Below, one piece after another: positions 5,194-28,015 of a stretch of 32,000 bases of DNA. The notes beneath the pieces are model-generated. The model was not told the origin of the DNA, ran no database searches, and saw only the letters and a program-made list of their open reading frames with translations. A program made the position numbers and the translations under genes. Within the stretch, counting starts at the first letter, position 1. Every line of letters starts with the position of its first letter. This DNA comes from Mesoplasma florum L1 (lineage in GTDB: Bacteria > Bacillota_I > Bacilli_A > Mycoplasmatales > Mycoplasmataceae): NCBI RefSeq assembly GCF_000008305.1, contig NC_006055.1:330001-362000 (forward strand), read 5' to 3'.

Positions 5194-6312
5194 ATGCAGC
5201 GTAATTTAAAAAGAGTTTTATTAGTTGGAAATGGATTTGATTTAAGTATTGGTGTAAAGGAATTTGAAGTAAATAATCTAAATGATATTATTTTTTTGAA
5301 AAATAAAAGTACAAAAAATCAAATTCAAAATTTTTTTGAACAATCGATAATTGAAATTATTGATGAAGCTAATGATGAAGATTTAAAAAAACAAGAAACT
5401 GAAATAATTTATAAACTAAACTTATTTTTTTTAAATAATTACGATAAATTCAATTTTAATATGACCAATGGTAATGATAAAATAGGTTTAGAAAATTTTT
5501 CTCGTCCATTTTATGAATACTTATATGTTTACTCAAGATATTGTAAAGATCCTGTAAAAATAGACAAAAAATATGTTAAAAAAATTTGCAAAACTTTTTT
5601 TGAAAAAGTTCTACAAAATATATATCAAAATTACAATTTAAATAATCTTAATAATTTAACAAAACAAAGTATTAAATGAAGATTAGAAAAATATGATAAA
5701 ATTATTTCTTTTAATTATACAGATTTTGTGGATCAAATTTCAAATAGAAATGATATAAAGCATATTCATGGTAGTTTAAAAGAAAATAATATAATTATTG
5801 GCGGATTGGATGAAAAAGAAGATTCTGTTTTTATTGTAAATGAATTAAAAGATATATTAGTAGACAACAAAGAAAATATAATTGAAATAGATATATTTGG
5901 TTTTTCGTTTGATGAAGATCAATCTGTTTTTGAAACTATTTCAAATCTTAAAATGAAATGAAATGAGTTTACTAATGTTAAAATATTGGTTAATTACTTT
6001 TTTTATTCTAATGAAGAAAACAAAAATTTTCAAAAATTTTGAGATGATTTTGAAAGTTTTTTTGAAATGACTTCTGAGAAATATACTTATCAACAAAAAA
6101 TTAAACAAAAAAAGGAAATTTTTCACAATTTTTACAGAAATGAAAACTTCATTTATCATAGATTTAATAAACAAGGTATTTTTGATGGATATTGATTATA
6201 TGATAGTCCAATAAATCAAAATAATTATATTCAACGTTTTTATGATTACATATTTGATAGTGATGGTTTTTCTTTATACGTAATAAAAAGCGAAAAATGA
6301 CTTAATAAATAA
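5194..6312 (+). CDS. AbiH-like abortive-infection family protein (about 372 aa, code 4)
   Basis: ORFs 5194 and 5728 plus the downstream stretch are one frame joined by 5 TGA codons, with stop TAA at 6310-6312. N-terminal LLVGNGFDLSIG, central ISFNYTD...IKHIHGSL..IIIGG and later IDIFGFSFDEDQ match the AbiH (PF14253) motif layout as I recall it. Confidence 0.65.
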
Positions 6313-10776: not shown

Positions 10777-12228
10777 ATGAAAAAAATTGAAATAAATAAT
10801 TTTAGATCAATTGAAAAAGCAATAATGAATTTTGGTGAAATAAATTTTTTTATAGGAGATAATAACACTGGTAAAAGTTCTACTCTAAAATTGATTGAGG
10901 CATTAATGCAAAATAGTCATTTGAATTTTCAAAATACTTTTTTATACAGTGAACAAATTGAAAATTTAAAATACAATATTAAAGAACCATTAGAAGTATT
11001 ATATAAAGTAAACTTTGAAAGTGAAAAACAGAAAGAAAAAAATGAGATAATAGAGAATTTTGAATATTTAAAAATAGATTCGATTAATAATTTTGATTAT
11101 CCTTTAATAAAAACTTTAATAGTGCCTTTTTTTGACGAAGATTTTAACAATAATGAACAAAAAAAATTTGAATTTGTAAAATTTGATATTGATTATGAAT
11201 TTAAAGACTATAGACCTGTAATAAAACAATTAGATATAAGCATAAAATATTTATCTTTAATTGAATATAAAAATATAATAAAAAAATTAAAAATAAAAAA
11301 CTTGCTAAATTTAGATTTTGAAATAAAAAAATCAATAAATTTTGATGTAAATCAAAAAAATACTAAATCAAAAAAGGATTTTTATTTCTATTCTATTAAT
11401 TTTTTAACTAGAATATTAAATAATTCAAATAAAAGTGTTGAATTTCGAATAGATATATTATTTGACATTTATCAGCTAATAAAAAAGGAAAATTCCACAA
11501 AAATTAAAGAAGTTCATGGATTATCAAGAATTTTTGGAACAAAAAAAACTAAATATATAGACCCATTAAGACCTATTTTAAAAGATATCTATTTTAAAAA
11601 TGAAATTGATAAAGAAGAAAAACTTCAATTTGTTAGAAAATTAAATGTAAACAATAGTGATTTAAGAATAATTTCTAAATTTTTGAAAAAGTCAAAAATG
11701 CTAGAAAATTTAGATATAGCAAAAATTAAAGCTAAAGAGTTTTCAAGTGAAGCATATAAATTATCATATAAAAAATACAATAAACAAAATATACCAATTT
11801 CAATTTCTGGGACAGGAATTTCACAAATTATTCCGATACTTTTTGCAATTTTAGAAAAAAGAAATGACAAAATTTTCATAGAACAACCTGAAGTTCATTT
11901 ACATCCAAGAGCACAAGCAGAATTTGGAACTTTTATCTCAGACTACATCAATAATTATAGTCAGAAATCAACTTTTAAAAATAACAAAATTTTATTAAAA
12001 AAACAATTTTTTATTGAAACTCATTCTTTATACATGATAAATAGATTTAGAAATGAAATTAAAAATAATAAACTTTGTGATGATAATTCAAGAATTACAT
12101 TTTTTAAAAATACTTCAAAAAAAACTATTATAGAAAGTATAAAGTTTAATGAATTTGGTGAATTTGACGGTAAAATAGATAATTTTCTTAAATTTTTTGT
12201 TGATGAAAATATAAAGAATCTTAGTTAA
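10777..12228 (+). CDS. ABC/SMC-like AAA ATPase (AAA_15/AAA_21, DUF3696-like), candidate defence ATPase
   Basis: Intact 483-aa ORF with no Trp. Walker A GDNNTGKSS, signature-like SGTGISQ, Walker B region KIFIEQPEVHLHP, H-loop IETHS. Starts 13 nt after the infB stop. Confidence 0.8.
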   Translation: MKKIEINNFRSIEKAIMNFGEINFFIGDNNTGKSSTLKLIEALMQNSHLNFQNTFLYSEQIENLKYNIKEPLEVLYKVNFESEKQKEKNEIIENFEYLKIDSINNFDYPLIKTLIVPFFDEDFNNNEQKKFEFVKFDIDYEFKDYRPVIKQLDISIKYLSLIEYKNIIKKLKIKNLLNLDFEIKKSINFDVNQKNTKSKKDFYFYSINFLTRILNNSNKSVEFRIDILFDIYQLIKKENSTKIKEVHGLSRIFGTKKTKYIDPLRPILKDIYFKNEIDKEEKLQFVRKLNVNNSDLRIISKFLKKSKMLENLDIAKIKAKEFSSEAYKLSYKKYNKQNIPISISGTGISQIIPILFAILEKRNDKIFIEQPEVHLHPRAQAEFGTFISDYINNYSQKSTFKNNKILLKKQFFIETHSLYMINRFRNEIKNNKLCDDNSRITFFKNTSKKTIIESIKFNEFGEFDGKIDNFLKFFVDENIKNLS

Positions 12229-12230
12229 TA

Positions 12231-12785
12231 ATGAAAGAAATAAAAAATATAATAGTCGATACTAATTTGATGATCGATATTTTAACTGTAAGAGAAAAAC
12301 CTGTTATTTCTGACTATTCTAAAAATCAACTTTTGACTTTTTTTAAAAAAGGCAAAAATTTTAAGTTAATTATAGCAGGCAAAAAAATGTTAAACGAATT
12401 AACGGGAGAAGAATATAAAGGCAAAAAACAAAATTTATTAGAGTTATTAATGTTAATATCAGCAACTTCTGAAGCTATAAAAATTGAAATAAGAAATGAC
12501 CAAGCAATTGATGAATTAATTTATAAATTTGTTCTTAGTGATAAATGAGACGGAAGAAAAGATGATCCAAATTCGGTTGCAACAAGAATGCCAGCTGATC
12601 CACACATGATATATGTTAGCTACTATTTTGATGTTAAATATATTATGACAAGGGATAAAGATTTTGCAAAAAAAGTTAATTCAAAATATTTACAATATTT
12701 TCCAGATAAATTTTTTTCTCCCGAAGTTATATGTAAATGTTATTGAGAAGATAAGGAATTTGATATTAATTTACTTATTAAATAA
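12231..12785 (+). CDS. PIN-like domain protein (about 184 aa, code 4), candidate nuclease partner of the ATPase
   Basis: Starts 2 nt after the ATPase stop. ORF 12231 continues in frame through 2 TGA codons to TAA at 12783-12785. N-terminal IVDTNLMIDIL and C-terminal ADPHMIYVSYYFDVKYIMTRDKDF resemble the first and last acidic PIN motifs. Confidence 0.55.
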
Positions 12786-12912
12786 AATATGTTTTATATA
12801 AGAGATTATATTGACAAATAAATTGGTTAAATTAAATTTTAAAAAATTCAAATAGCTTACTTAACTTAATTATTTTTTAAATGTAAATTAATTTAAAAAG
12901 GAGAGCTTTAAA

Positions 12913-14802
12913 ATGATAATTTATAAAAATATTAAATCAGGGTTTATTAAAGATGTAGAACAAGGGCTTATAGTAGAAATATTGCAAGAAAAAGTAGATA
13001 GTCTTTTAAAGAGAAAAACAAACATCGCTGAACTAAATAGTTGAAATAATTCACTTAAAGAAATGGCAATAGTTTTGTATGATCAAAATATACCAAGCGA
13101 CTCAGGTATTGCTTTAGAATATAATATTTCTAGAACATCTAAAAGAATAGATTTTATTATAAGTGGAAAAAATAAAGATTTTAAAAAAATAATAATAGTT
13201 GAGTTGAAACAATGACAAGAATGTAAAAAAGTAGAAAATAGTAATACAGTAGTTGAGACTTTTATAGCAGGGAATATTAGAGAAACTGTTCATCCTTCAT
13301 ATCAAGCTTTTTCTTATTCAACTCTTTTAAAAGATTTTACAAAAATTATTCAAAATGATAAAAAAATCAAAATTGAAAGTTGTGCTTATTTACATAACTA
13401 TAAATTGGATAAGGCACCTGATATATTAGCTGATCAATATAAAATATTTTTTGAAAAAAGCCCAGTTTTTTTAAAAGGTGAAATTGAAAAATTTAGAAAC
13501 TTTATTAAAAAAAATATAACTTCAGGAGACAAATGTGAACTTATTCAAAAAATTGATGAAAGTCCTATATCACCAGGAAAGTCAATTCAAGATTTTTTAA
13601 AGGAAATTATCGATGGAAAAGATGTTTTTACATTGATTGATGAACAAAGAACATCATATGAAAAATGCATTCAGATAATTGATGAATATAGAAAAACAAA
13701 GGACAAAAAGGTAATAATAATCCCTGGAGGACCTGGAACAGGTAAAACTGTTATAGCTTTAAGAATTCTTTCTGCTTGTATTCAAAAAGGTTTAAATTCA
13801 ATATATGTTTCCAAAAATGAAAGTTTAAGAAATGGATATAAAAAAATAATTCTTGAAAATGACGTTGAAAAAACATATTCAAGAGCAAGAATAGACAATA
13901 TCTTCTATGGTAGTGCCAAATTTTCCAATCTAACAAAAGATAATTTTGATTGCACGGTTGTTGATGAAGCACATAGATTAATTGAGAGACATCAGTGAAC
14001 GCCTAAAGGAAAAGGATATAACAATCAAATTCAAGAAATAATTTGTGAGTCTAAAGTTTCTATATTTTTTGTTGATGAAAAACAAATAGTTACAACGCAG
14101 GATATTGGAACAATAAAAGAAATAAAAAGATGTGCTTTAAAAGAAGGCATTTTAAGTGAGAACATATTACTATTGGAACCTTTAAAGTCTCAATTTAGAT
14201 CATCTGGAGCCGATGATTATATTGATTTTGTCGATAACATTCTATATGATGAAAACAAAAACGTATTAAACTTTACAAATAATTTCAATTTTAAAGTCTT
14301 TGATAATATAGAAAAAATGTATCAAGAATTGTTAGAAAAAAATACTAAAAATAATGCAAGATTATTAGCAGGTTATTGCTGAAACTGAGTTTCTAAAAAA
14401 AATACTGAAAAAAATGATATTAAAATAAATAACTTTGAAATAAAATGAAATCTTGCAAATGATAAATATTATATGTTCAATAAAGATTCTATATCTCAAG
14501 CAGGTTGCATACATACATCACAAGGTTTGGAAAAAGAATACATTGGTGTTATTATAGGGCCCGACATGATTTATAGAAATAATAAAGTAACTGTCGATTA
14601 TTCAAAAAAAGCCAAAACTGATACTAGTCTAAAAGGAATCGGAAAATTAAGTCAAATGGAAAAACATGAGATAGCAGATAAAATTATAAAAAATACTTAT
14701 AGAGTTTTATTAACAAGAGCTACAAAAGGTTGTTTTGTTTATTGTTGTGATAAAAAACTTGGAACATATATATCAAATAAACTAAATGAATTAATTAAAT
14801 AA
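12913..14802 (+). CDS. DUF2075-type SF1 helicase/ATPase with N-terminal PD-(D/E)xK-like nuclease domain (about 629 aa, code 4)
   Basis: The ATG at 12913 and ORFs 13405, 14173 and 14473 share one frame, joined by TGA. Nuclease-like RIDFIISG...IIIVELKQW; Walker A GGPGTGKT; Walker B VVDEAHRL; then FFVDEKQIV, GYCWNW and GCIHTSQGLEKEYIGVII...YRVLLTRATKG. Confidence 0.8.
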
Positions 14803-16432: not shown

Positions 16433-17208
16433 AAATAAGAAAATTAAAATTATCAATAGGTTTTTTATTAGGTTTTGAAGCATTAATCATATTAGCAATG
16501 GTTATACTATCATTTAAATGATCATGATTAATCTTTTTAACAGCTGGAGTTGGATATATATTATTTGTATTACATAATTTAGTATTTGTAATTAGAAGAA
16601 AAGTTATTATAAAGAAATTTAATAATACAATTAAAGAAAATTTAATATTTAAGTCATACATAGAAAAAAGAAATTATATTCATAACTTTTTAATATTTTA
16701 TACATCATTTTTTATATTAGTATTTGTAACTATTGCAACAATAGTATTTTTATTTGTAACTGATACAGATAATAGTATTGCACTAGATTTATTAAGTTTA
16801 ATTTCTGCTGCTTTAGTAATAGTTTCTCCATTTTTAGGAGCATTTTATAAAAAGATAACAAACATAACACAAACTGAAGGTGATATGAAAAATGATGCGC
16901 TTAGAAAAGATATCAAATATGTAATAACAGGTAATACAAGTTTAAATAAGGCAATTAATGATATAAACTTAAATACTAAAACAATTGAACTATTAAAAAA
17001 TGAAAAAGAGATTAATTCACAAAAAATAGTAAAAAGATTAAATAATCGTATTAACAATATTAATGAACAAATTTCATTATTTGAAGTGTATTTATTATTT
17101 GAGGCTTTCTTAAAAGAAATCGATGAAAAGGCTAAAATTAAAGAATTTAAAAACAATATTTTAACTAAAAAGAACTTATCTGAAATAGTAGTTATTTTAA
17201 ATAAATAA
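16423..17208 (+). CDS. hypothetical membrane protein, same architecture as the upstream gene, coiled-coil C-terminus (about 261 aa, code 4)
   Basis: The ATG at 16423 is in frame with track ORF 16885..17208 via 2 TGA codons. N-terminus MKSKIRKLKLSIGFLLGFEALIILAMVILSF. Shares a 22-nt start-region repeat with the upstream gene. Confidence 0.6.
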
Positions 17209-17226
17209 AAGAAGGGAAAAACTATC

Positions 17227-17946
17227 ATGAGCAATAGAGTGAATGACAAAATAAAAATGTCAGAACAAGAAATTAAGTATAGAGATTTAAAAATTCAAAA
17301 ATACGTTATTAAAGATATTTTGCAAAAAGTTGTGAAAACTGGTTTTGACAAAACAAATCTTTATTTTGTTTCTCTTGGCTCTAAAGCAAGACAAGCATAT
17401 AAATTTGTGATGTTTACTAAACAATGAGTAAGTTCTATTATTAAAGATGTTGAGTTACTACCAATAAAAGAAAAATATAAAATTAAAGCTATAAAAAAAC
17501 TAATTAAATTAGAAAACTTTGAAATAGTTAAAGAAAAAAGATTAAAAACATATGAAATAGATCAAAAATATTTAGATTTAGTAATTCAAAAATTGCTATC
17601 AAAGAATAAATTAATAGCAATTAGAAAACTTAAGAAAAAACTTTTTATTTTAACTGATAATCGTAAAAAACAATATACTAATAATTTGAATGTTTTAAAT
17701 ACTATTAATTTTAAAACAGTAGAAGATCAAAAGAAGATGTATCAAAATTTATGAGATAAAGAAGTTAAAGAATATTTAAATGAAAGAGAAATAGCTTTAA
17801 CTAGACTAAAAGACCCTAAAAGATACAATTTCTTAAATGATTATTATAAAAAAGATCCTAAGAATACATTATTAAAAGATTTTAAACCAGATAAAGAAAA
17901 ATATGATATTTTTAAATCAATCATTAAAGGTGAGATAAATGTTTAG
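17227..17946 (+). CDS. hypothetical Lys-rich protein (about 239 aa, code 4)
   Basis: ORF 17227 continues through 2 TGA codons to TAG at 17944-17946 and overlaps the rsmE start by 8 nt. I recognise no domain. Confidence 0.5.
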
Positions 17947-18655
17947 ATATTTTGTTGAAATTAAAAAAGATAATAATTTTTTTATTATTAATAATAACGA
18001 TGTACATCATATAAAAAATGTTGTAAAACTTAAAAATGATGAAATTATTGAGTGTGTTTATGAAAAAGAAGTTTATCAAACTAAAATTATTGATTTAACT
18101 ATTGAAAATAATGTAATTGTTGAAATTATTAATAAAGTAGAAACAACAATAAGCAATGTTAAAAAAGTTTTAATAGCTGGAGTTTTAAGAGAACAAAAAT
18201 GAGATTATTTATTACAAAAATCAACAGAACTTGGAGTTGATGAAATAATACCAGTTATTTTTAAGAGAAATGTAGTTAAAATTGATGAAAAAAAGATTGA
18301 TCAAAAACTGCAAAGATGACAAGCAATTTGTGACACAGCTGCTAAACAAGCAAAAAGGACAACAATCCCTGTTGTTAATAATTTAATAACTAATCTAAAA
18401 GATTTAAAAAACAATTTATGTGATTTAAATCTTGTGGCTTGAGAAAAAGAAAAAAATATTGAACTTAAAACATATTTAACACAAGACTTTAATTCAATTA
18501 GTTTCATTATTGGGTGTGAAGGTGGAATTGAAGTTAGTGAAATTAAAATTCTGCACGAAATAGGTTTTAAGAATGTTAGTCTAGGAACTAATATATTAAG
18601 AGCTGAAACAGCACCAACTTATGTATTAAGTAGTTTAATTTATGAAAATAAATAA
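17939..18655 (+). CDS. rsmE: 16S rRNA (uracil1498-N3)-methyltransferase RsmE (about 238 aa, code 4)
   Basis: ORF 17939 continues in frame through 3 TGA codons. The C-terminal IGCEGGIEVSEI...LGTNILRAETAP is the RsmE SPOUT signature. Confidence 0.85.
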
Positions 18656-18698
18656 TCTTAGTATTTAAATTAAAAGTCAATAAGTATATAATTATAAC

Positions 18699-18748
18699 GT
18701 GTCTGGCACCGCCTTTCCTTAATTATCAATTATATTTTAGCCAGACAC
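18699..18748 (+). other. 9-bp perfect inverted repeat (GTGTCTGGC ... GCCAGACAC) with about 32-nt spacer; candidate structured RNA or protein-binding site
   Basis: Read directly from the sequence. It is preceded by a TATAAT-like box (about 18686-18697) and abuts the terminator at 18749. Confidence 0.4.
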
Positions 18749-18772
18749 ATCACCCTAACCGGTGATTTTTTT
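18749..18772 (+). terminator. Rho-independent terminator
   Basis: ATCACC-ctaacc-GGTGAT followed by T7, downstream of rsmE. Confidence 0.7.
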
Positions 18773-18811
18773 ATGTTTAAAAGAAGGTGCGCTGTTTTTA
18801 AAAAATAAAAC

Positions 18812-18820
18812 TGTTATAAT
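18812..18820 (+). promoter_or_regulatory. extended -10 promoter TGTTATAAT for the methyltransferase / DUF262 operon
   Basis: TGnTATAAT about 29 nt upstream of the ATG at 18849, with an AAAAGGGG RBS in between. Confidence 0.45.
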
Positions 18821-18848
18821 AATTTTATGCAAATAAAAAGGGGTATTC

Positions 18849-20216
18849 ATGGAAAAAATAAAAGTTTTCGAAACGTTTTCAGGTATAGGTGCTCAACATA
18901 AAGCTTTAGATATTTTAAAACAAAATAATTATATAAATTATGAAGTTGTTGGAACGAGCGAATGAGATATATGAGCCAATATAGCGTATAATGCAATTCA
19001 TAATAAAAATATAGATCATACAAAAAATATTAGTGAGAAAGAGATTAATGACTTTTTAATTAAATTTACACATTCAAGAGATTCAAAAACTCCGCTTACA
19101 AATGAACAAGTAATCAAATTACCGATAATAATAAAACAAAATTTATATAACTCTATTAAAAATTCAAACAATTTAGGAAGTATAGTTGGCGTTACTGGCA
19201 ATATGATATCATCTCAAGTAGGTAAGATAGATTTATTAACTTATTCATTTCCATGCCAAGATTTATCTACTGCAGGAAGCTTTCATGGGAAAAATCAAGG
19301 AATGAAAAAAAATAGTGGAACAAGATCAGGTCTTTTATGAGAAATTGAAAGAATATTAAAAGAACTTAAAGCAAAAAAAGAATTACCAAAATATTTGCTT
19401 TTAGAAAATGTTAATAACATGATTTCGGAAAGACATAAAGATGATTACTTAATGTGATTAGATTTTTTAAATTCAATTGGATATAATACTCAAACTTACG
19501 TATTAGAAGCAAACAAATATGGTTGCCCACAAAATCGTAAAAGAGTTTTTGCGTTGAGCGTTAGAAAAGATGTAACTAAAGAATTTAAGGATACTTTTTT
19601 AGAAAGTAAAAGAACAAGCATTAAAGAAGAAAAAACACCATTTGATATTTCTAAAGAAATAGGCATATATAAAAAAACACATGAATTGCTGAGAGAGGAT
19701 TATTCAATAGAAAAATACAAAAATGAAGCAATAAATGCAATTCCTAATAGAACTGATAGTAGAAAAAGAATTTTTTTAAATAATAAAATGCTTTCAACAC
19801 AGGAAAATACAAATATTGAAAAACATTCTAAAAATATATATATCCAAAATGGAAAAACGTATTCAAATTTTTCTTCAACTATAACAACTAAACAAGATAG
19901 AGATCCTAATGGCGGAATCATAAACTTAAAAGGTACAGATTTGCAAAATAGATATAATGAAAAAAAACAAATTAGGAAAGCAAATTTTAGACTTTTAACG
20001 CCTAGAGAGTGTTATATGTTAATGGGTTTTTCAGAGAATGATTTTGATAAAGTTTTATCAAAAGCTGAGCAAATTAATTTTAGTGTAAGTGTAAGAAAAA
20101 AAACTTTTACTGACAGTATACTTTACAGACAAAGCGGGAACAGTATATCTGTCAATGTTTTAACTTCTATTTTTAAAGTAATTGCAGATATAGAAAATAA
20201 AACATTTAAAGGATAA
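18849..20216 (+). CDS. DNA (cytosine-5)-methyltransferase (about 455 aa, code 4)
   Basis: Motif I FETFSGIGAQ, IV SFPCQDLS, VI LLENV, VIII QNRKRVF, IX RLLTPRECYMLMGF, X QSGNSISVNVL. The ATG at 18849 is in frame with track ORF 19554..20216 via TGA codons. Confidence 0.92.
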
Positions 20217-20244
20217 AAAGATATAATTTTAAAAAAGGGGTAAT

Positions 20245-22752
20245 ATGAAAAAAAGAATATTTAATAAATTTCAACCATATTTAAATGAATTTGAAAAAGA
20301 AAAAATAGCATTAGTAGAGGAAAAAATAACAGGTGATAATGAAAGAATAGCTAATGACGTTTCAGTGGATTTAATAATTATATTAGAATCAAAAATGATG
20401 AGCATATTAGAAAAATATGATATTTATTGTCCATTAGATGAAAGAGGAGCTAAAAATCTATTTGATAAAATAAGAAGTTTATATATACGAGAAAAAAAAC
20501 TTGAGTCAGAAAAGTTTACAAATGTTAACATACCTAAAATTATATATTCAACTTTTGAATATATAAGAAATTGAAGAAATAATGATGGTGGTCATGCGTC
20601 TGAATTTGTCATAAACAGAAGTTTTATGGATACAATACATTTACTGAAGTGTTTTGATATAGTTTTATCATTTTTAATTAATTTTTTTGATGATTTAGAC
20701 TTTGAAATAAATGAGTTTGATGAAAAAGGTTTACTTTCTTCATGAAATAAAAGGGGTCATTTTATAGATGAAATTTTAGAGGAAGATAAAAAATTAGATA
20801 CAACATCTATAAAACTAGGGAAAATAAATTTAAGTTCTTTTGTTTTAAATTCAGAAATAAGTTTTTTTATACCATCGTATCAAAGAAAATATAGATGAGA
20901 ATCAGAAACTTGCTTAGAGCTTATAGAAAATATCATTTCTAAAATTGATCAAATTGATGACGAATATTTTGGAACTATAGCAGTTACTATAGAGGAATCT
21001 AAACATAATGAAAAAATAAGAACAATAAGATTAATAGATGGGCAACAAAGAGTAACTACCTCTTTAATTATATTTAGAGCAATATATGATGTTTGAAATG
21101 ATAAAAAAAATAATTCTTATGAAGAAACAGTAATGGATACACCTTTAGAATTAGAAAAAACTTTCAAAGAAATTGGGTGTGCAGAAAAATATAAAAATGT
21201 TACAGGAGTTAAAGAAGAAAATGAAGCTCTTAATTTTATATTAAATTCTAATGTTAGTTACGTCGAAAGATTAAAAACAATAAATTCTTTTGAGCTACAT
21301 AATAAATCATTAGCAGCTAAAAATTACAATGCTATACACGATAGAATTAAAGAATTGAATCAAGATGAATTACTTTCTTTTTATAATAGATATGCATATA
21401 AGTTTCTAATTTCATGTGTTGATTTTAATAAAACTCCAGCAGAAGAAATGGAAATTTTTGAAACACTTAATTCTAAAGGGACTGAATTAGATTCGTTTGA
21501 TATGATAAAAAACTTTTTATTTAATTTAGTAGATAAAGAAATTTATATAAATAATGAATTAGAAATAACTAGAATATTTAATGATTATATTTCTTTTAAT
21601 GATATGAAGTTAGATGAAGCTAAAACGAGAAAGGTACAAGAAAACTTTTTATTTGGTTTTTGTGAATATAAGATGTTAAATTTTAAAGCATCAGATAATA
21701 CTTTGAGCAAAAATAAAAAATCAATTTTAAAGCATTTTAAAAAAATTTATGAAGGTAAACAAAACTTATCTTTAGAAGAGTATAAAAAAATAGTATCAGA
21801 GATAGGTAAATATGTTTTTATAACTAAATCATTTATATCAAAAAGTTATGAAAATGACACAAATGATATTTTATACCCAATAAGATATAATGTTTCAAAT
21901 ATATCGCATAAAGAAGTTTCGATTTTTATTTTGTATTATTTTATTGACTTATATGCTAAAAATAATTGAGATTCTTATAATAAAACATTAAATTATTCAG
22001 AAAAAGTGAATTTAATGAAAGATACTTTATTTGAATTTGAAAGATGATTGATAGCTCTACTTCAAGTTTATGGAACTGGACAATCTTTAACAAAACCAAT
22101 ATTGAGATTATTTAGATTTTTAAATACATTCGACATTGATAATCATTCTGTACAAAGTGAAATACCAAATATGATTAGAAAATGATTAAATTTAGAAGCA
22201 ACTGATGCGTTTGCATTTTTAAATAATGACCAAAGAAGATTATTATTAGAAAACAATGAATTGAAAATGCCTAATAAAGATTTATTTTTTGAAAACTTAA
22301 TAAACAAAAAAGTTCAAGATAAAAATGTGGCAATGGTAATTTTAAAAAGATTGGAAAGTTTTTTAATCAATAATTGAGAAATTAAAAGAGATAAAAACTC
22401 TCTTGAACATATAATGCCTAGAACTATAAAAAAAACAAAATGAATTGAATACTTAAAGGAAAATGAAAGTTTGACTGAAAAAGATATTTTAGAAAAACAT
22501 TCAGTTTATTTAGATAAATTGGGTAATTATATGATATTAGACAAAAGTAAAGAAAATTCAAAGATTTCTAATAATGATTTTGAAGAAAAAAGGAAGCAAT
22601 ATATACTTTGAAGTAATCCATTAGCTGAATTAATATTTGATTATAATGAAAAGAAAAATTTAAATAATATCAATAAGTTTGGTTTTGATGAGATTCAAGA
22701 AAGAACCGTTGCATTAGCTAAAATAATTTCTGAAAATATTTATTATAAATAA
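20245..22752 (+). CDS. DUF262 (ParB-like NTPase) + DUF1524 (HNH-like) GmrSD-family nuclease with about 200-aa N-terminal extension (about 835 aa, code 4)
   Basis: ORFs 20245 and 21133 share a frame that stays open through TGA codons to TAA at 22750-22752. DUF262 motifs IPSYQRKYRW and IRLIDGQQRVTTSLIIF; DUF1524/HNH-like SLEHIMPRT...LDKLGNYMILDKSKENSKISNNDF. The N-terminal IRNWRNNDGGHA resembles DUF4145. Confidence 0.8.
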
Positions 22753-22765
22753 TAGGAGTAGAAAA

Positions 22766-23392
22766 ATGTCAAAAAATGTAACTTTAATACTTATAGCTGG
22801 TGGAACAGCATCAGGAAAAACAACTGTTGCTGATAGAATAGCTAATGAAATTTTAAAAGGTAAATCGGTAACTCATATTTCAATGGATAATTATTATAAA
22901 GATTTTGGTGAATTGACTTTAGAAGAAAGAAGGAAAATAAACTTTGATCATCCAAATAGTGTGGATACTGAACTACTTTTAAATGACTTGCAAGCTTTAA
23001 AAGACTATCAACCAATCAAGGTGCCGGTTTATGATTTTAAAACTTCTTCAAGAACCAAAGAAACAATTACAGTTAAACCTAGTGATGTTGTAATACTTGA
23101 TGGAATTTTTGCACTAGCTATTAAAGAGATTAGAAAACTTGGAGATATCAAAATTTTTATAAAAACAGCTAATGATTTAAGGTTTATTAGACGTTTACAA
23201 AGAGATGTAAATGAAAGAGGGAGAACTTTAGAAAGTGTTGTTGAACAATACTTAAATGAAGTTAAACCAATGCATGATGCATTTATTGGGCCAAGTATTG
23301 AATACGCTGATTTAATAATTCCTTATAAAGAGGGGAATGAAGTTGCAGTTGATTTAGTAGCAACTAAAATATTAACATTGTTAACAGAGTAA
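22766..23392 (+). CDS. udk: uridine kinase
   Basis: Intact 208-aa ORF with P-loop IAGGTASGKTT, NFDHPNS, and RRLQRDVNERGR typical of Udk. Confidence 0.93.
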   Translation: MSKNVTLILIAGGTASGKTTVADRIANEILKGKSVTHISMDNYYKDFGELTLEERRKINFDHPNSVDTELLLNDLQALKDYQPIKVPVYDFKTSSRTKETITVKPSDVVILDGIFALAIKEIRKLGDIKIFIKTANDLRFIRRLQRDVNERGRTLESVVEQYLNEVKPMHDAFIGPSIEYADLIIPYKEGNEVAVDLVATKILTLLTE

Positions 23393-23436
23393 AAAAACAT
23401 AGATGTCTTTTTAAATAAGGCCTCTATGTTTTTTGA
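23391..23436. terminator. bidirectional A/T-flanked hairpin between convergent udk and the restriction gene
   Basis: AAAAAACATAGA ... TCTATGTTTTTT with a 19-nt loop and U-runs on both strands. It overlaps the last codons of the minus-strand CDS. Confidence 0.5.
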
Positions 23437-24769
23437 TTAAAAATGAAATTGTTTTGCGATTTAATCAAAATGCTTGAAATGTTAAATTAGAATTTTCATA
23501 TTTATTTTTGGCATTTGAATTTTTTGCTTTAGGTCTTAAATGAAAATCTTTGTCTTCTTTTTGTTTAGTTAGAATAAAATCTTCTTTTTTACCTTTATTT
23601 ATTGTTTCAAAAGAAAGTTTTGTTTGCTTTCAAATGTTCTCTGCATTTTTATAAATTCTTTCATTAATATCTTTTTTTGAAATAATACCATCAAGCAGAA
23701 CGACATCTTTAATGATTTTTTTACTAAAAATATTTTCATCTATTGTAACTATAATATATGGTTTTGTAAGCTCTTGATAAAATAAAGAATCCTCAAATTT
23801 GTTTTCTTTTAATATTTCATCAATTTTAATGTGATGAGACGAAATTGGCATACTTTCCTGTGTTATTTCACCAGATTTACTTAGTCTCATGGTTCTTACT
23901 TTTATTTGATCTTCACTAATTAGTTCTAAAATTGAATCATCATATTCTTCTAACATCTTTTTTAGAATTATTCCGTTTGCTTGTTTTGCAGAAGTATTGA
24001 TATTATTTTTTTTAGCATAATCAGATAAATCTGCGTTTATAAAATTCTTTAAAAAGTTATAAGCTTTTAAACTAGAAGTATTAAAATAAGCATTTATACT
24101 TTCAAAATCACTTCCTGTTAAAATGTAATTTACATATCACTTTTTTAAAGCAAAAGCTCTACTTTTTGCTTTAAAATCACTATTTGGTTGATTTCTTAAA
24201 TCTTTATTTTTACCTTGCCCCTTTGTTGTCGCTTCTAAAATTTTAGTGTCTGAACAAGAAAGCTCATGAGCAATTCCATTTTGTATTTTTTGATAAATTA
24301 TTGAGTAATCATTTTCAATAATTTTTTTTTCATTTTCAGAAATATTTTCATACTTTCATAGTATAGATTTTATGATTTTTAAATTTTTACGATTTTTGTC
24401 CTTGTTGTATTCGTGACCTATTAAAAGTATATTTTTATTTTTATTAAGAACCTTTGAATCAGTAAAATCTTTTTCTATATTATTAAAATCAATCATTGAA
24501 AGAGAAACTCTTTCTTTTGCAATTCACTGTTTTTTCTTGTTTTGTTTTAAACCAGTAACTTTTAATTCTAAATCTAAACCTAACTCTTTAAAATCGCTTT
24601 CAGATCTGTTATTTATGTCAATATTGAAATAATACTTTTGAATTAAATTTCCTATTCTTCCTTTATCTTTAAGTTTATAATCAATTTCATCAAAATTAAT
24701 TATTTCTCCTAATTGTTTATTTTCCGCTTCTTTTGCTCTACGAAATATATCATCTATTGTCTTATTCAT
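23411..24769 (-). CDS. type II restriction endonuclease, Sau3AI/MutH family (about 452 aa, code 4); GATC specificity predicted by family only
   Basis: Minus-strand ORFs 24524..24769 and 23630..23956 share a frame joined by TGA. N-terminal KGRIGNLIQKYYFNI..SESDFKELGLDLELKVTGLK (MutH-like D..ELK); central EATTKGQG...AKSRAFALKKWYVNYIL; C-terminal FHLRPKAKNSNA...QAFWLNRK (second MutH-like half, as in Sau3AI). Confidence 0.8.
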
Positions 24770-24819: not shown

Positions 24820-24846
24820 AAATATTTTATGAAAGAGTGTGAAATA

Positions 24847-28015
<3,169 letters not shown>

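What the first reader, a model, noticed from the sequence alone, without database searches (positions are those of the whole stretch)
18849..22752. C5 methyltransferase co-transcribed with a DUF4145?-DUF262-DUF1524 (GmrSD-like) nuclease: an unusual pairing
The two genes are 28 nt apart, behind a single extended -10 promoter, and bracketed by the rsmE terminator and udk. Characterised DUF262+DUF1524 enzymes (GmrSD, BrxU, SspE-like) are typically modification-dependent or accessory nucleases, not classical methylation-blocked restriction partners. There are two possible readings. Either this is a non-canonical R-M pair with a ParB-NTPase/HNH enzyme as the restriction component, or a type IV enzyme is coexisting with two m5C methyltransferases in the same genome and must tolerate their marks. 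The extra 200-aa N-terminal domain (IRNWRNNDGGHA) may be a sensor or regulatory module.
Basis: partly seen in the sequence, partly recalled or inferred. Interest (0 to 1): 0.65.

Follow-up and report, generated by a model that had tools for sequence, protein, structure and literature searches.

The report
MTase–GmrSD cassette missing third gene
The cytosine methyltransferase and GmrSD-type nuclease in Mesoplasma florum L1 are a real, conserved gene partnership, but this copy lacks the small third gene found in every related copy examined, and published transposon data show the methyltransferase can be disrupted here.

Summary
The window is Mesoplasma florum L1, and the genes are mfl304 (C5 MTase, 455 aa) and mfl305 (DUF4145/HEPN-like + DUF262 + DUF1524, 835 aa), 28 nt apart.

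The pairing is not chance. I found 13 distinct loci with this nuclease type. All have a methyltransferase or MTase-like gene just upstream. Twelve also carry a small unannotated gene (S, about 175–223 aa), often with overlapping start and stop codons. The window is the only locus without S. About 660 bp in a sister strain is replaced here by about 55 bp.

S has no nuclease motifs, but in three representatives it is fused to a PD-(D/E)XK (NOV_C) nuclease domain. The MTase family elsewhere partners with NgoFVII-type restriction enzymes and AIPR/MzaD-like defence genes.

Best reading (inferred): M marks self DNA, and S plus the nuclease attack unmarked DNA. The L1 copy, lacking S, is probably attenuated. 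Published Tn-seq scores mfl304 and mfl305 as non-essential, while the neighbouring Sau3AI-like pair is scored essential.

HEPN–ParB–HNH fusions are already described. The three-gene module was not in the literature I searched. I rate it a new variant of a known kind, of moderate interest.

The parts
18699..18766 (+). Double hairpin after rsmE: a 9-bp stem (18699-18707 / 18740-18748, 32-nt loop), then a terminator hairpin (18749-18766) and a T-run. It marks the conserved left border of the variable cassette.
   Evidence: Terminator scan. RNA fold -21.9 kcal/mol, z = -5.1. The same inverted repeat follows rsmE in L083, L084, L086 and L087. No Rfam match.
18812..18820 (+). Extended -10 promoter-like box TGTTATAAT upstream of M. 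The AAGGGG ribosome-binding site is at 18838-18843.
   Evidence: Read from the sequence. The two-hexamer scan did not list it because there is no good -35. Function not tested.
18849..20216 (+). M = mfl304, a C5 cytosine DNA methyltransferase, 455 aa. Motifs present: FSGIG (I), PC136Q (IV; Cys codon at 19254-19256), ENV (VI), QNRKR (VIII), GNS (X). TRD motif: TITTKQDRDPNGG.
   Evidence: PF00145 1.3e-50. TIGR00675 dcm 2.4e-42. The catalytic half is like M.MpeI 4dkj (155 bits), but the TRD barely aligns (15 bits, i-E 0.09). Orthologous to the MTases next to N in 8 other genomes, TRD included. Annotated 'CPG DNA methylase', non-core and non-essential.
20217..20244 (+). 28-nt M-N spacer containing TATAAT (20222-20227) and the ribosome-binding site AAGGGG (20235-20240). 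In relatives, the ~640-bp S gene sits at this position.
   Evidence: Sequence. blastn against the sister strain aligns window 17165-20197 and 20253-23375 to L087 4325-7340 and 8009-11107, so about 660 bp is missing. tblastn of nine S proteins (including the M. coleopterae fusion) against the window under code 4 finds nothing.
20245..20829 (+). N (mfl305) N-terminal domain, aa 1-195: an all-helical, DUF4145/HEPN-like domain. The motif R111-NNDGG-H117 is at 20575-20595.
   Evidence: AF2 model pLDDT 78.9, pTM 0.75, helical bundle. Foldseek top hits are HEPN proteins, but none is significant (best E 0.6). Pfam on homologues: DUF4145 5.6e-8 (L175), 4.3e-4 (P0011), 6.5e-4 (L003); HEPN_Apea 7.3e-5 (P0007). 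H117 is invariant and R111 is present in 11 of 12. The window's own NTD gets no Pfam hit.
20845..21522 (+). N DUF262/GmrSD_N (ParB-like NTPase) domain, aa 201-426. DGQQR is at aa 265-269 (21037-21051).
   Evidence: PF03235 3.5e-29. DGQQR is invariant in 12 homologues. PADLOC HEC-06 2.9e-36, SspE 1.2e-14. PDB SspE 6jiv E 2.3e-4, over aa 193-282 only.
22285..22725 (+). N DUF1524/GmrSD_C His-Me finger nuclease domain, aa 681-827. E721-H-I-M-P725 is at 22405-22419. G760-N761, N771 and N776 follow.
   Evidence: PF07510 7.8e-20. These residues are invariant in 12 homologues.
22766..23392 (+). udk (mfl306), a conserved core gene forming the right border of the cassette. It is probably read through from N: 13-nt gap, AGGAG ribosome-binding site, no terminator.
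   Evidence: Sequence. PRK-family (uridine kinase-type) genes follow N in L001, L083 and L087. The udk protein is 95% identical between strains, against 56-64% for N.

Best explanation
mfl304-mfl305 is a copy, lacking S, of a three-gene cassette found in Mesoplasma, Entomoplasma, Spiroplasma and related uncultured low-GC bacteria. It occupies a hypervariable slot between the core genes rsmE and udk.

The full cassette has three parts:
- M, a C5 cytosine methyltransferase.
- S, a small protein of about 175-223 aa with no catalytic motifs.
- N, a DUF4145(HEPN)-DUF262-DUF1524 enzyme.

Proposed mechanism (inferred, not shown):
- M methylates a specific motif and so marks host DNA as self.
- S is a DNA-recognition or adaptor partner.
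- N supplies NTP-driven His-Me finger DNA cleavage against unmarked incoming DNA.
- The HEPN-like N-terminal domain acts as an added RNase or a regulatory module.

In strain L1, S has been lost. The L1 pair is therefore most likely attenuated: M behaves like an orphan methyltransferase, and N is either idle or acts as a solitary nuclease that does not depend on M for host safety.

Shown here: gene structure, domains, intact motifs, conserved linkage, absence of S, and co-divergence. Shown in a published data set: M and N are non-essential. Inferred: the direction of methylation sensitivity, the role of S, and any RNase activity.
For: - Linkage. All 13 distinct loci with a DUF4145-type GmrSD nuclease (window, L001, L002, L003, L083, L086, L087, L088, L089, L090, L091, L092-94, L175) have an MTase or MTase-like gene within two genes upstream. 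Twelve of the 13 have S or S2. Start and stop codons often overlap.
- Gene order varies (M-S-N or M-N-S) while the gene content is kept.
- The NTD profile hits only the MTase-linked nucleases, not the other GmrSD paralogues in the same genomes.
- Co-divergence: S vs N r = 0.84, M vs N r = 0.59. The flanks rsmE and udk are 91-95% identical between strains, but M and N only 56-65%.
- S has only W, T, S and Q invariant, with no nuclease motif. Three of 17 representatives are S fused to a NOV_C/DUF3883 domain with a PD-(D/E)XK-type YDF...EVK motif.
- The M family (TRD TTKQDR[HD]P) elsewhere sits next to NgoFVII-type REases (18 loci), AIPR (33), MzaD-like DUF4420 (15) and Vsr (16). It is therefore a self-marking partner of effectors that act on unmodified DNA.
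- The L1 genome also carries a Sau3AI-like pair whose MTase is scored essential, so N must tolerate at least that m5C.
- mfl304 is non-essential in L1, the one strain without S.
- The L1 nuclease keeps every residue that is invariant across the 12 homologues.
Against: - There is no biochemical or methylome data for any member.
- Characterised GmrSD relatives are mostly modification-dependent (GmrSD, BrxU) or modification-sensing (SspE). Some act regardless of methylation (EF_B0059).
- Viable Tn insertions in mfl304 could reflect polarity on mfl305 rather than loss of restriction.
- S could not be modelled (pLDDT 41), so its DNA-binding role is a guess.
- Homology between the S and S2 groups is weak (hhalign E 0.005, probability 7%).
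- In L091-L094 the upstream gene is only weakly MTase-like.
- The HEPN arginine is absent in the L175 homologue, so RNase activity may not be general.
- N remains intact in L1 without S, which argues for some S-independent role or a very recent loss.
- Only the 32-kb window of L1 was searched for S.
Confidence: 0.5

Rival explanations
1. N is an autonomous GmrSD-type defence nuclease, either type IV (aimed at phage hypermodified bases) or modification-independent. It is simply embedded in, or carried along with, a small R-M-like unit (M + S or M + S-nuclease). The linkage reflects co-mobilisation of complementary defences, as with BrxU inside BREX, rather than a shared mechanism. Loss of S in L1 would then leave N fully functional.
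For: - GmrSD-like genes are often embedded in other defence systems and act independently.
- In M. coleopterae and CP043026, M + S-NOV_C looks like a self-contained MTase/nuclease pair. There the GmrSD gene is separated by udk, or lacks the NTD.
- N is intact in L1 without S, and M is dispensable.
- Most M-family MTases in metagenomes have no GmrSD neighbour (about 73 of 80).
Against: - The NTD-bearing nuclease type was never found without an MTase or MTase-like gene beside it (13 of 13 loci). Other GmrSD paralogues in the same genomes lack the NTD.
- Stand-alone S has no nuclease motif, so M + S alone is not a complete R-M system.
- S co-diverges most tightly with N (r = 0.84).
- Overlapping coding regions and the alternative M-N-S order keep N inside the unit.
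Confidence: 0.3
2. An SspE-like logic: N reads the m5C mark laid down by M on host DNA as a positive signal. The mark positions or stimulates its NTPase and nickase activity, and N then damages invading DNA that lacks the pattern. M is needed for activity rather than for protection.
For: - SspE is a DUF262-DUF1524 enzyme that works with an adjacent modification module and senses that modification.
- PADLOC SspE models hit the N-terminal part of the DUF262 domain (1.2e-14), and PDB SspE hits at 2.3e-4.
- M being non-essential in L1 is compatible with this logic.
Against: - Similarity to SspE is limited to about 100 residues of the shared domain.
- It gives no role for S or for the S-nuclease fusions.
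- The M family's other partners are classical effectors aimed at unmodified DNA.
Confidence: 0.1
3. There is no functional link. An orphan 'CpG-type' methyltransferase and a decaying GmrSD gene happen to sit together in a defence island of strain L1.
For: - Both genes are non-core and non-essential.
- The region is rich in other defence genes: AbiH, an AAA_15 ATPase, a SLFN-like helicase, and a Sau3AI-like pair.
- S is missing.
Against: - Conserved synteny across genera and in metagenomic contigs.
- Co-divergence of the genes.
- Both ORFs are intact with all catalytic residues, in a 25% GC genome where stop codons arise easily.
Confidence: 0.05

Closest known systems
GmrSD family (GmrSD, BrxU, HEC-06, EF_B0059): DUF262 NTPase + DUF1524 His-Me nuclease
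   Same: Same two catalytic domains, with DGQQR and EHxxP intact. The best PADLOC model is HEC-06 at 2.9e-36. Located in a defence-rich region.
   Different: It carries an extra DUF4145/HEPN-like N-terminal domain. It is always next to a C5 MTase and, except here, a small S gene. Characterised members are solitary genes that target modified DNA or act regardless of modification.
SspABCD-SspE (and Dnd-type) modification-plus-GmrSD-like systems
   Same: A DUF262-DUF1524 enzyme genetically coupled to a host DNA-modification module. There is weak sequence similarity in the DUF262 N-terminus.
   Different: The modification here is m5C made by a single MTase, not phosphorothioate made by a multi-gene pathway. 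The S partner and HEPN domain are extra. Whether the mark is sensed is unknown.
HEPN (DUF4145 and other families) fused to R-M nucleases, including HEPN-ParB(DUF262)-HNH fusions (Anantharaman et al. 2013, PMC3710099)
   Same: DUF4145 is a HEPN family reported as fused to REase and helicase modules and found in R-M operons. [quoted passage not shown]
   Different: That survey assigns the ParB+HNH fusion to a different HEPN family. It does not describe this M-S-N module or the S protein.
M.MpeI / M.SssI (Mollicute CpG-specific C5 MTases)
   Same: The catalytic half of M is closest to M.MpeI (4dkj: 155 bits over aa 3-255). RAST labels mfl304 'CPG DNA methylase'.
   Different: The target-recognition region aligns only marginally (15 bits, i-E 0.09). 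M's TRD motif TTKQDR[HD]P is shared with MTases that sit beside NgoFVII-type REases and AIPR/MzaD-like genes. CpG specificity should therefore not be assumed.
MTase-linked multi-gene defence loci with AIPR, MzaD-like DUF4420, HATPase_c_3 and Z1 genes (MZA-type), and NgoFVII-type Type II R-M
   Same: They use the same MTase family as the modification partner. A Z1 gene and a HATPase_c_3 gene lie in the CP043026 locus.
   Different: The effector genes are entirely different. None of them is present in the window.

Membership tests
GmrSD family (DUF262 + DUF1524) | N-terminal DUF262/ParB-like NTPase domain with the (I/V)DGQQR motif | tested here: met
   PF03235 3.5e-29 over aa 201-426. LIDGQQR at aa 263-269 is invariant in 12 homologues.
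GmrSD family (DUF262 + DUF1524) | C-terminal DUF1524 His-Me finger domain with the EHxxP motif | tested here: met
   PF07510 7.8e-20 over aa 681-827. E721, H722, P725, G760, N761, N771 and N776 are invariant.
GmrSD family as Type IV restriction enzymes | Cleavage depends on modified DNA (5hmC, glc-5hmC, 5mC) | not testable with these tools
   Needs in vitro cleavage or phage assays. Indirect point: the host carries two C5 MTases, one of them scored essential, so general m5C-dependent cutting is unlikely.
GmrSD family as Type IV restriction enzymes | Solitary gene with no cognate methyltransferase | tested here: not met
   An MTase or MTase-like gene lies immediately upstream, or within two genes, in all 13 loci.
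HEPN superfamily / DUF4145 (PF13643) | Significant match to the family profile | tested here: inconclusive
   The window's own NTD gets no hit at E <= 10. Homologues do: L175 at 33.2 bits (above the 23.1 cutoff), P0011 20.7 bits, L003 20.2 bits, and HEPN_Apea 23.7 bits for P0007. The assignment therefore rests on homology between the NTDs (profile hits 1e-44 to 1e-64).
HEPN superfamily / DUF4145 (PF13643) | Rx4-6H motif | tested here: met
   R111-x5-H117 in the window. H is invariant and R111 is present in 11 of 12. P0006 and L003 instead have an R three positions earlier. The L175 homologue has no R. The literature reports about 80% conservation of the motif in DUF4145.
HEPN superfamily / DUF4145 (PF13643) | Helical-bundle HEPN fold | tested here: inconclusive
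   The AF2 model is all-helical, pLDDT 78.9. Foldseek top hits are HEPN proteins (2hsb prob 0.82, 1wol 0.77, HepT, 1o3u, 4nqf, RnlA), but the best E is 0.6.
C5 cytosine DNA methyltransferases (PF00145) | Conserved motifs I, IV (PCQ), VI (ENV), VIII (QxRxR) and X (GNS) | tested here: met
   PF00145 1.3e-50. The motifs are invariant in the alignment of 7 N-linked MTases.
CpG-specific M.MpeI/M.SssI group | Target-recognition domain similar to M.MpeI | tested here: not met
   The second stretch (aa 288-451) scores 15 bits, i-E 0.09, against 155 bits for the catalytic half. CpG o/e of 0.44 in the window is not specific.
Classical Type II R-M pair | MTase cannot be lost while the cognate nuclease is active | tested here: not met
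   mfl304 is scored non-essential in the L1 Tn5 library, whereas mfl308, next to the Sau3AI-like REase, is scored essential. Caveat: insertions in mfl304 may be polar on mfl305.
M-S-N three-gene module (defined here) | Presence of the S gene between or after M and N | tested here: not met
   tblastn of nine S proteins against the window (code 4) gives only chance hits (E >= 0.085). About 660 bp is missing relative to L087. Only the 32-kb window of L1 could be searched.

The most novel reading that the evidence does not exclude
M-S-N is a previously undescribed three-component, methylation-guarded restriction system. In it a GmrSD-family enzyme, a family known for attacking modified DNA, works in the opposite sense: it cuts DNA that lacks the m5C mark of its own methyltransferase. 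Targeting comes from a new non-catalytic specificity/adaptor protein (S), which in some genomes is fused directly to a PD-(D/E)XK nuclease. A HEPN RNase domain provides a second, abortive-infection layer. Strain L1 would be a natural S-deletion that disarms the system.
Probability: 0.3. Interest if true: 0.7.

Novelty: new variant of a known kind. Interest (0 to 1): 0.5.

Why it matters
GmrSD-type nucleases are usually treated as solitary type IV enzymes. A clade that is always wired to its own m5C methyltransferase and a small partner protein would extend the known range of the family. It would add a compact m5C-based counterpart to the phosphorothioate-linked SspE systems. It would also give a candidate new DNA-recognition/adaptor protein (S) that exists both free and fused to a nuclease.

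There is a practical side. M. florum L1 is used as a near-minimal chassis. It is useful to know that mfl304/mfl305 is probably a disarmed cassette while the neighbouring Sau3AI-like pair appears active. That bears on transformation barriers and on genome-reduction designs. It also warns against using the 'CpG methylase' annotation of mfl304 without a methylome.

Tried and rejected
- The genome-contig scan with the nuclease alignment was swamped by generic GmrSD relatives. Apart from L003 and L004, I had to use single-protein look-ups instead.
- Word-index searches for S returned only 1 and then 3 proteins. The exhaustive representative search was needed.
- The AF2 model of S from a 3-sequence alignment failed (pLDDT 41), so no fold search was run on it.
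- Foldseek on the NTD gave no significant hit. I use it only as supporting evidence.
- The hhalign comparison of the S and S2 groups was inconclusive.
- Pfam and NCBIfam found nothing for stand-alone S, or for the N-terminal extension of the L103 nuclease.
- Rfam found nothing in the window.
- The plasmid search found only generic DUF262 proteins without the NTD.
- Literature searches for M. florum methylation or restriction, M.MpeI + Mesoplasma, and DUF262 + MTase operons found no description of this module.
- CpG depletion and 4-mer palindrome statistics on 32 kb are too weak to infer M's target.
- I rejected 'chance adjacency' because of the synteny, and 'S is a small REase' because S has no conserved acidic or lysine catalytic residues.
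- I did not attempt dN/dS, because at 56-65% amino-acid identity synonymous sites are saturated.
Full report
**1. What is there**

The window has about 25% GC, and its ORFs are fragmented under table 11.
- M, 18849-20216, 455 aa.
- N, 20245-22752, 835 aa, 28 nt downstream of M.

The coordinates and annotations match Mesoplasma florum L1 mfl304 ('CPG DNA methylase') and mfl305 ('RloF; DUF1524; DUF262') at window + 330000. The nuclease protein also occurs on a 793,224-bp contig.

M is a complete C5 methyltransferase (PF00145 1.3e-50, all motifs present). N has three parts:
- a ~195-aa N-terminal domain;
- DUF262/GmrSD_N (3.5e-29) with DGQQR;
- DUF1524/GmrSD_C (7.8e-20) with EHIMP.

Upstream lie a hairpin terminator after rsmE and an extended -10 box, TGTTATAAT, at 18812. 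Downstream, udk follows after 13 nt with no terminator. A TATAAT also lies inside the 28-nt spacer, so a single promoter is plausible but unproven.

**2. The pairing is conserved, and it is normally a trio**

Close homologues of N (31-64% identity) occur only in Mesoplasma, Entomoplasma and Spiroplasma. More distant ones (24-27% identity) occur in uncultured low-GC bacteria. I examined their contexts.

| Layout | Loci |
|---|---|
| M → S → N | M. florum CG006, a second Mesoplasma, E. ellychniae, a Spiroplasma endosymbiont of Crioceris |
| M → S-type small ORF → N | Mycoplasmatales MAG L003; metagenomic contigs L091, L092-94, L175 |
| M → N → S | Three Spiroplasma genomes |
| M → S-fusion → udk → N | M. 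coleopterae |

S is an unannotated ORF of about 175-223 aa, and its start and stop codons often overlap those of its neighbours. L163 shows M followed by an S2-type ORF before the contig ends.

The window is the only one of 13 distinct loci without S:
- tblastn of nine S proteins (including the M. coleopterae fusion) against the window under code 4 finds only chance hits.
- Alignment with strain CG006 shows about 660 bp replaced by about 55 bp.

The N-terminal-domain profile matches only these MTase-linked nucleases. It does not match the other GmrSD paralogues in the same genomes. The MTases next to N are orthologous, including the target-recognition region.

The three genes also co-diverge: S vs N r = 0.84, and M vs N r = 0.59. 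rsmE and udk are 91-95% identical between Mesoplasma strains, whereas M and N are only 56-65% identical. The L1 cassette is closer to those of another Mesoplasma and of E. ellychniae than to that of the conspecific strain CG006. This is therefore a fast-evolving or exchanged cassette in a fixed chromosomal slot. Its left border is a double hairpin conserved after rsmE.

**3. The parts**

*N-terminal domain of N.*
- A homologue (L175) matches Pfam DUF4145 above threshold (33.2 bits). Others match DUF4145 or HEPN_Apea weakly. The window's own sequence gets no direct hit.
- The AF2 model is a confident helical bundle. Its best Foldseek matches are HEPN proteins, but none is significant.
- The motif R-N-x3-4-H is conserved: H117 is invariant and R111 is present in 11 of 12. 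One homologue lacks the Arg.
- DUF4145 is an established HEPN family, reported fused to restriction nucleases and found in R-M operons. HEPN fusions to ParB(DUF262)+HNH proteins have been catalogued (PMC3710099).

*S.*
- It is a tiny family: 17 representatives among 1.84 billion cluster representatives.
- The members I looked up are confined to Mesoplasma, Entomoplasma and Spiroplasma, and all are annotated 'hypothetical'.
- Its invariant residues are W, T, S and Q, with no nuclease signature.
- Three representatives are S fused to a C-terminal NOV_C/DUF3883 domain carrying YDF...EVK, a PD-(D/E)XK-type motif.
- A second group of small ORFs (S2: L003, L091, L092, L163, L175) occupies the same position and shares two motifs in register. 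Profile-profile support is weak.
- Structure prediction of S failed.

*M.*
- The catalytic half resembles the CpG MTase M.MpeI, but the TRD does not.
- In those loci the neighbours are AIPR (33 loci), NgoFVII-type PLD REases (18), Vsr (16), MzaD-like DUF4420 (15) and HATPase_c_3. GmrSD genes are neighbours in only about 5-7 of the 80.
- M therefore belongs to a methyltransferase family that is repeatedly recruited as the self-marking partner of different effectors.

**4. Experimental context from the literature**

In the L1 Tn5 library, mfl304 and mfl305 are non-core and non-essential. The adjacent Sau3AI/LlaKR2I-like REase (mfl307) and its MTase (mfl308) received no insertions, with miss probabilities of 0.008 and 0.014.

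An essential MTase is what an active R-M pair predicts. A dispensable mfl304 is what a disarmed pair predicts, or a nuclease that does not need M for host safety. Polarity of insertions on mfl305 is a caveat.

Characterised GmrSD relatives vary in how they relate to modification:
- GmrSD and BrxU target modified DNA.
- SspE senses a modification.
- EF_B0059 remains toxic even in a methylation-free host.

The family therefore does not dictate the direction of methylation sensitivity.

**5. Interpretation**

The evidence best fits a three-component, R-M-like cassette. M marks self DNA. S plus N form the effector: S does recognition or acts as an adaptor, and N does NTP-driven DNA cleavage, with the HEPN domain as an RNase or regulator. 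L1 carries a copy lacking S that is probably attenuated. I put this at about 0.5.

The main rival, at about 0.3, is that N is an autonomous GmrSD-type defence gene travelling with an M + S(-nuclease) unit. The M + S-NOV_C arrangements support this: in those loci the GmrSD gene is detached or lacks the NTD. N's survival in L1 without S also supports it.

An SspE-like 'mark-sensing' model (about 0.1) and pure chance adjacency (about 0.05) are less likely.

It is right in one respect: N cannot be a general m5C-dependent nuclease, given an apparently active m5C system next door.

**6. Novelty and score**

The genes are annotated and their dispensability is published. The individual domains, and HEPN-nuclease fusions in general, are known. 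I found no description of the following in the papers searched:
- the strict M-S-N module;
- the S family and its nuclease fusions;
- the fact that L1 lacks S.

I rate this a new variant of a known kind, with interest 0.5. It offers a coherent, testable system, but the instance in this window is the incomplete one and the mechanism is inferred.

Noticed in passing
window 23411-24769 (-) and 24829-26061 (+): A divergent Sau3AI/LlaKR2I-like REase (MutH domain, 1.6e-25) and a second C5 MTase (mfl307/mfl308). Both are scored 'essential' in the published Tn5 library. That is expected for the MTase of an active R-M pair but odd for the REase. The same kind of pair sits next to the M-N-S cassette in S. 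tabanidicola and S. corruscae.
   Followed up: partly
window 10777-14802: Between infB and a DnaJ-domain gene lie three genes: an AAA_15 ATPase (PADLOC AriA 3.5e-27, GajA-like), a 184-aa partner with no Pfam hit, and a DUF2075/Schlafen-type helicase (PF09848 2.6e-100; PADLOC PDC-S41, AbiO). Baby et al. 2018 describe this infB-dnaJ slot as highly variable among M. florum strains.
   Followed up: partly
window 5194-6312: An AbiH-like abortive-infection gene (PF14253 1.8e-8) sits between a 209-aa gene that follows polC and a rimP/nusA-like gene block. Together with the other items, the 32-kb window holds at least four defence-type loci.
   Followed up: no
window 18699-18766; also L083 2790-2839, L086 4685-4734, L087 5854-5903: A 9-bp stem with a 32-nt loop is followed directly by a terminator hairpin after rsmE (fold z = -5.1). 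It is conserved at the same position in other Mesoplasma genomes and has no Rfam match. It may be a compound terminator or a small structured element marking the cassette border.
   Followed up: partly
L083 2926-5919 and L001 2926-5916: In two relatives a ~997-aa protein with an NgoFVII-type PLD nuclease domain plus DEAD/ResIII/Helicase_C domains sits between rsmE and M. The MTase is therefore flanked by nucleases on both sides. This gene is absent from the window and from strain CG006.
   Followed up: no
L083 14171-16105 and L087 14065-16023: A 644-652-aa protein with only a GmrSD_N (DUF262) domain is inserted between the topoisomerase IV genes parE and parC in two Mesoplasma genomes. In the window, parE and parC are adjacent.
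   Followed up: no
L103 109-3346: On a 30% GC metagenomic contig, an M-family MTase is followed directly (overlapping ORFs) by a 698-aa GmrSD protein. That protein has a different ~180-aa N-terminal extension with no Pfam match, and there is no S gene. It appears to be an independent MTase-GmrSD pairing.
   Followed up: partly
L095 915-10288 (CP043026): One 1.37-Mb genome stacks several defence genes: a HATPase_c_3 gene, a Z1/ResIII gene, a C5 MTase plus a 374-aa ORF, then M + S-NOV_C fusion + a 686-aa GmrSD lacking the HEPN-like domain.
   Followed up: partly
window, whole 32 kb: CpG is strongly depleted (observed/expected 0.44) and TpG/CpA mildly enriched (1.13). GATC, CATG and GTAC are also somewhat under-represented. 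The sample is too small, and the signal too unspecific, to assign to either MTase.
   Followed up: partly
L091 1915-2745 and L092 about 1900-2707: In the most distant cassettes the gene upstream of S2 is a ~270-aa protein with PPCESWS and ENP motifs. These resemble C5-MTase motifs IV and VI, but it does not match the M-family profile and hits PF00145 only at E = 0.0045. It may be a minimal or divergent modification enzyme.
   Followed up: partly
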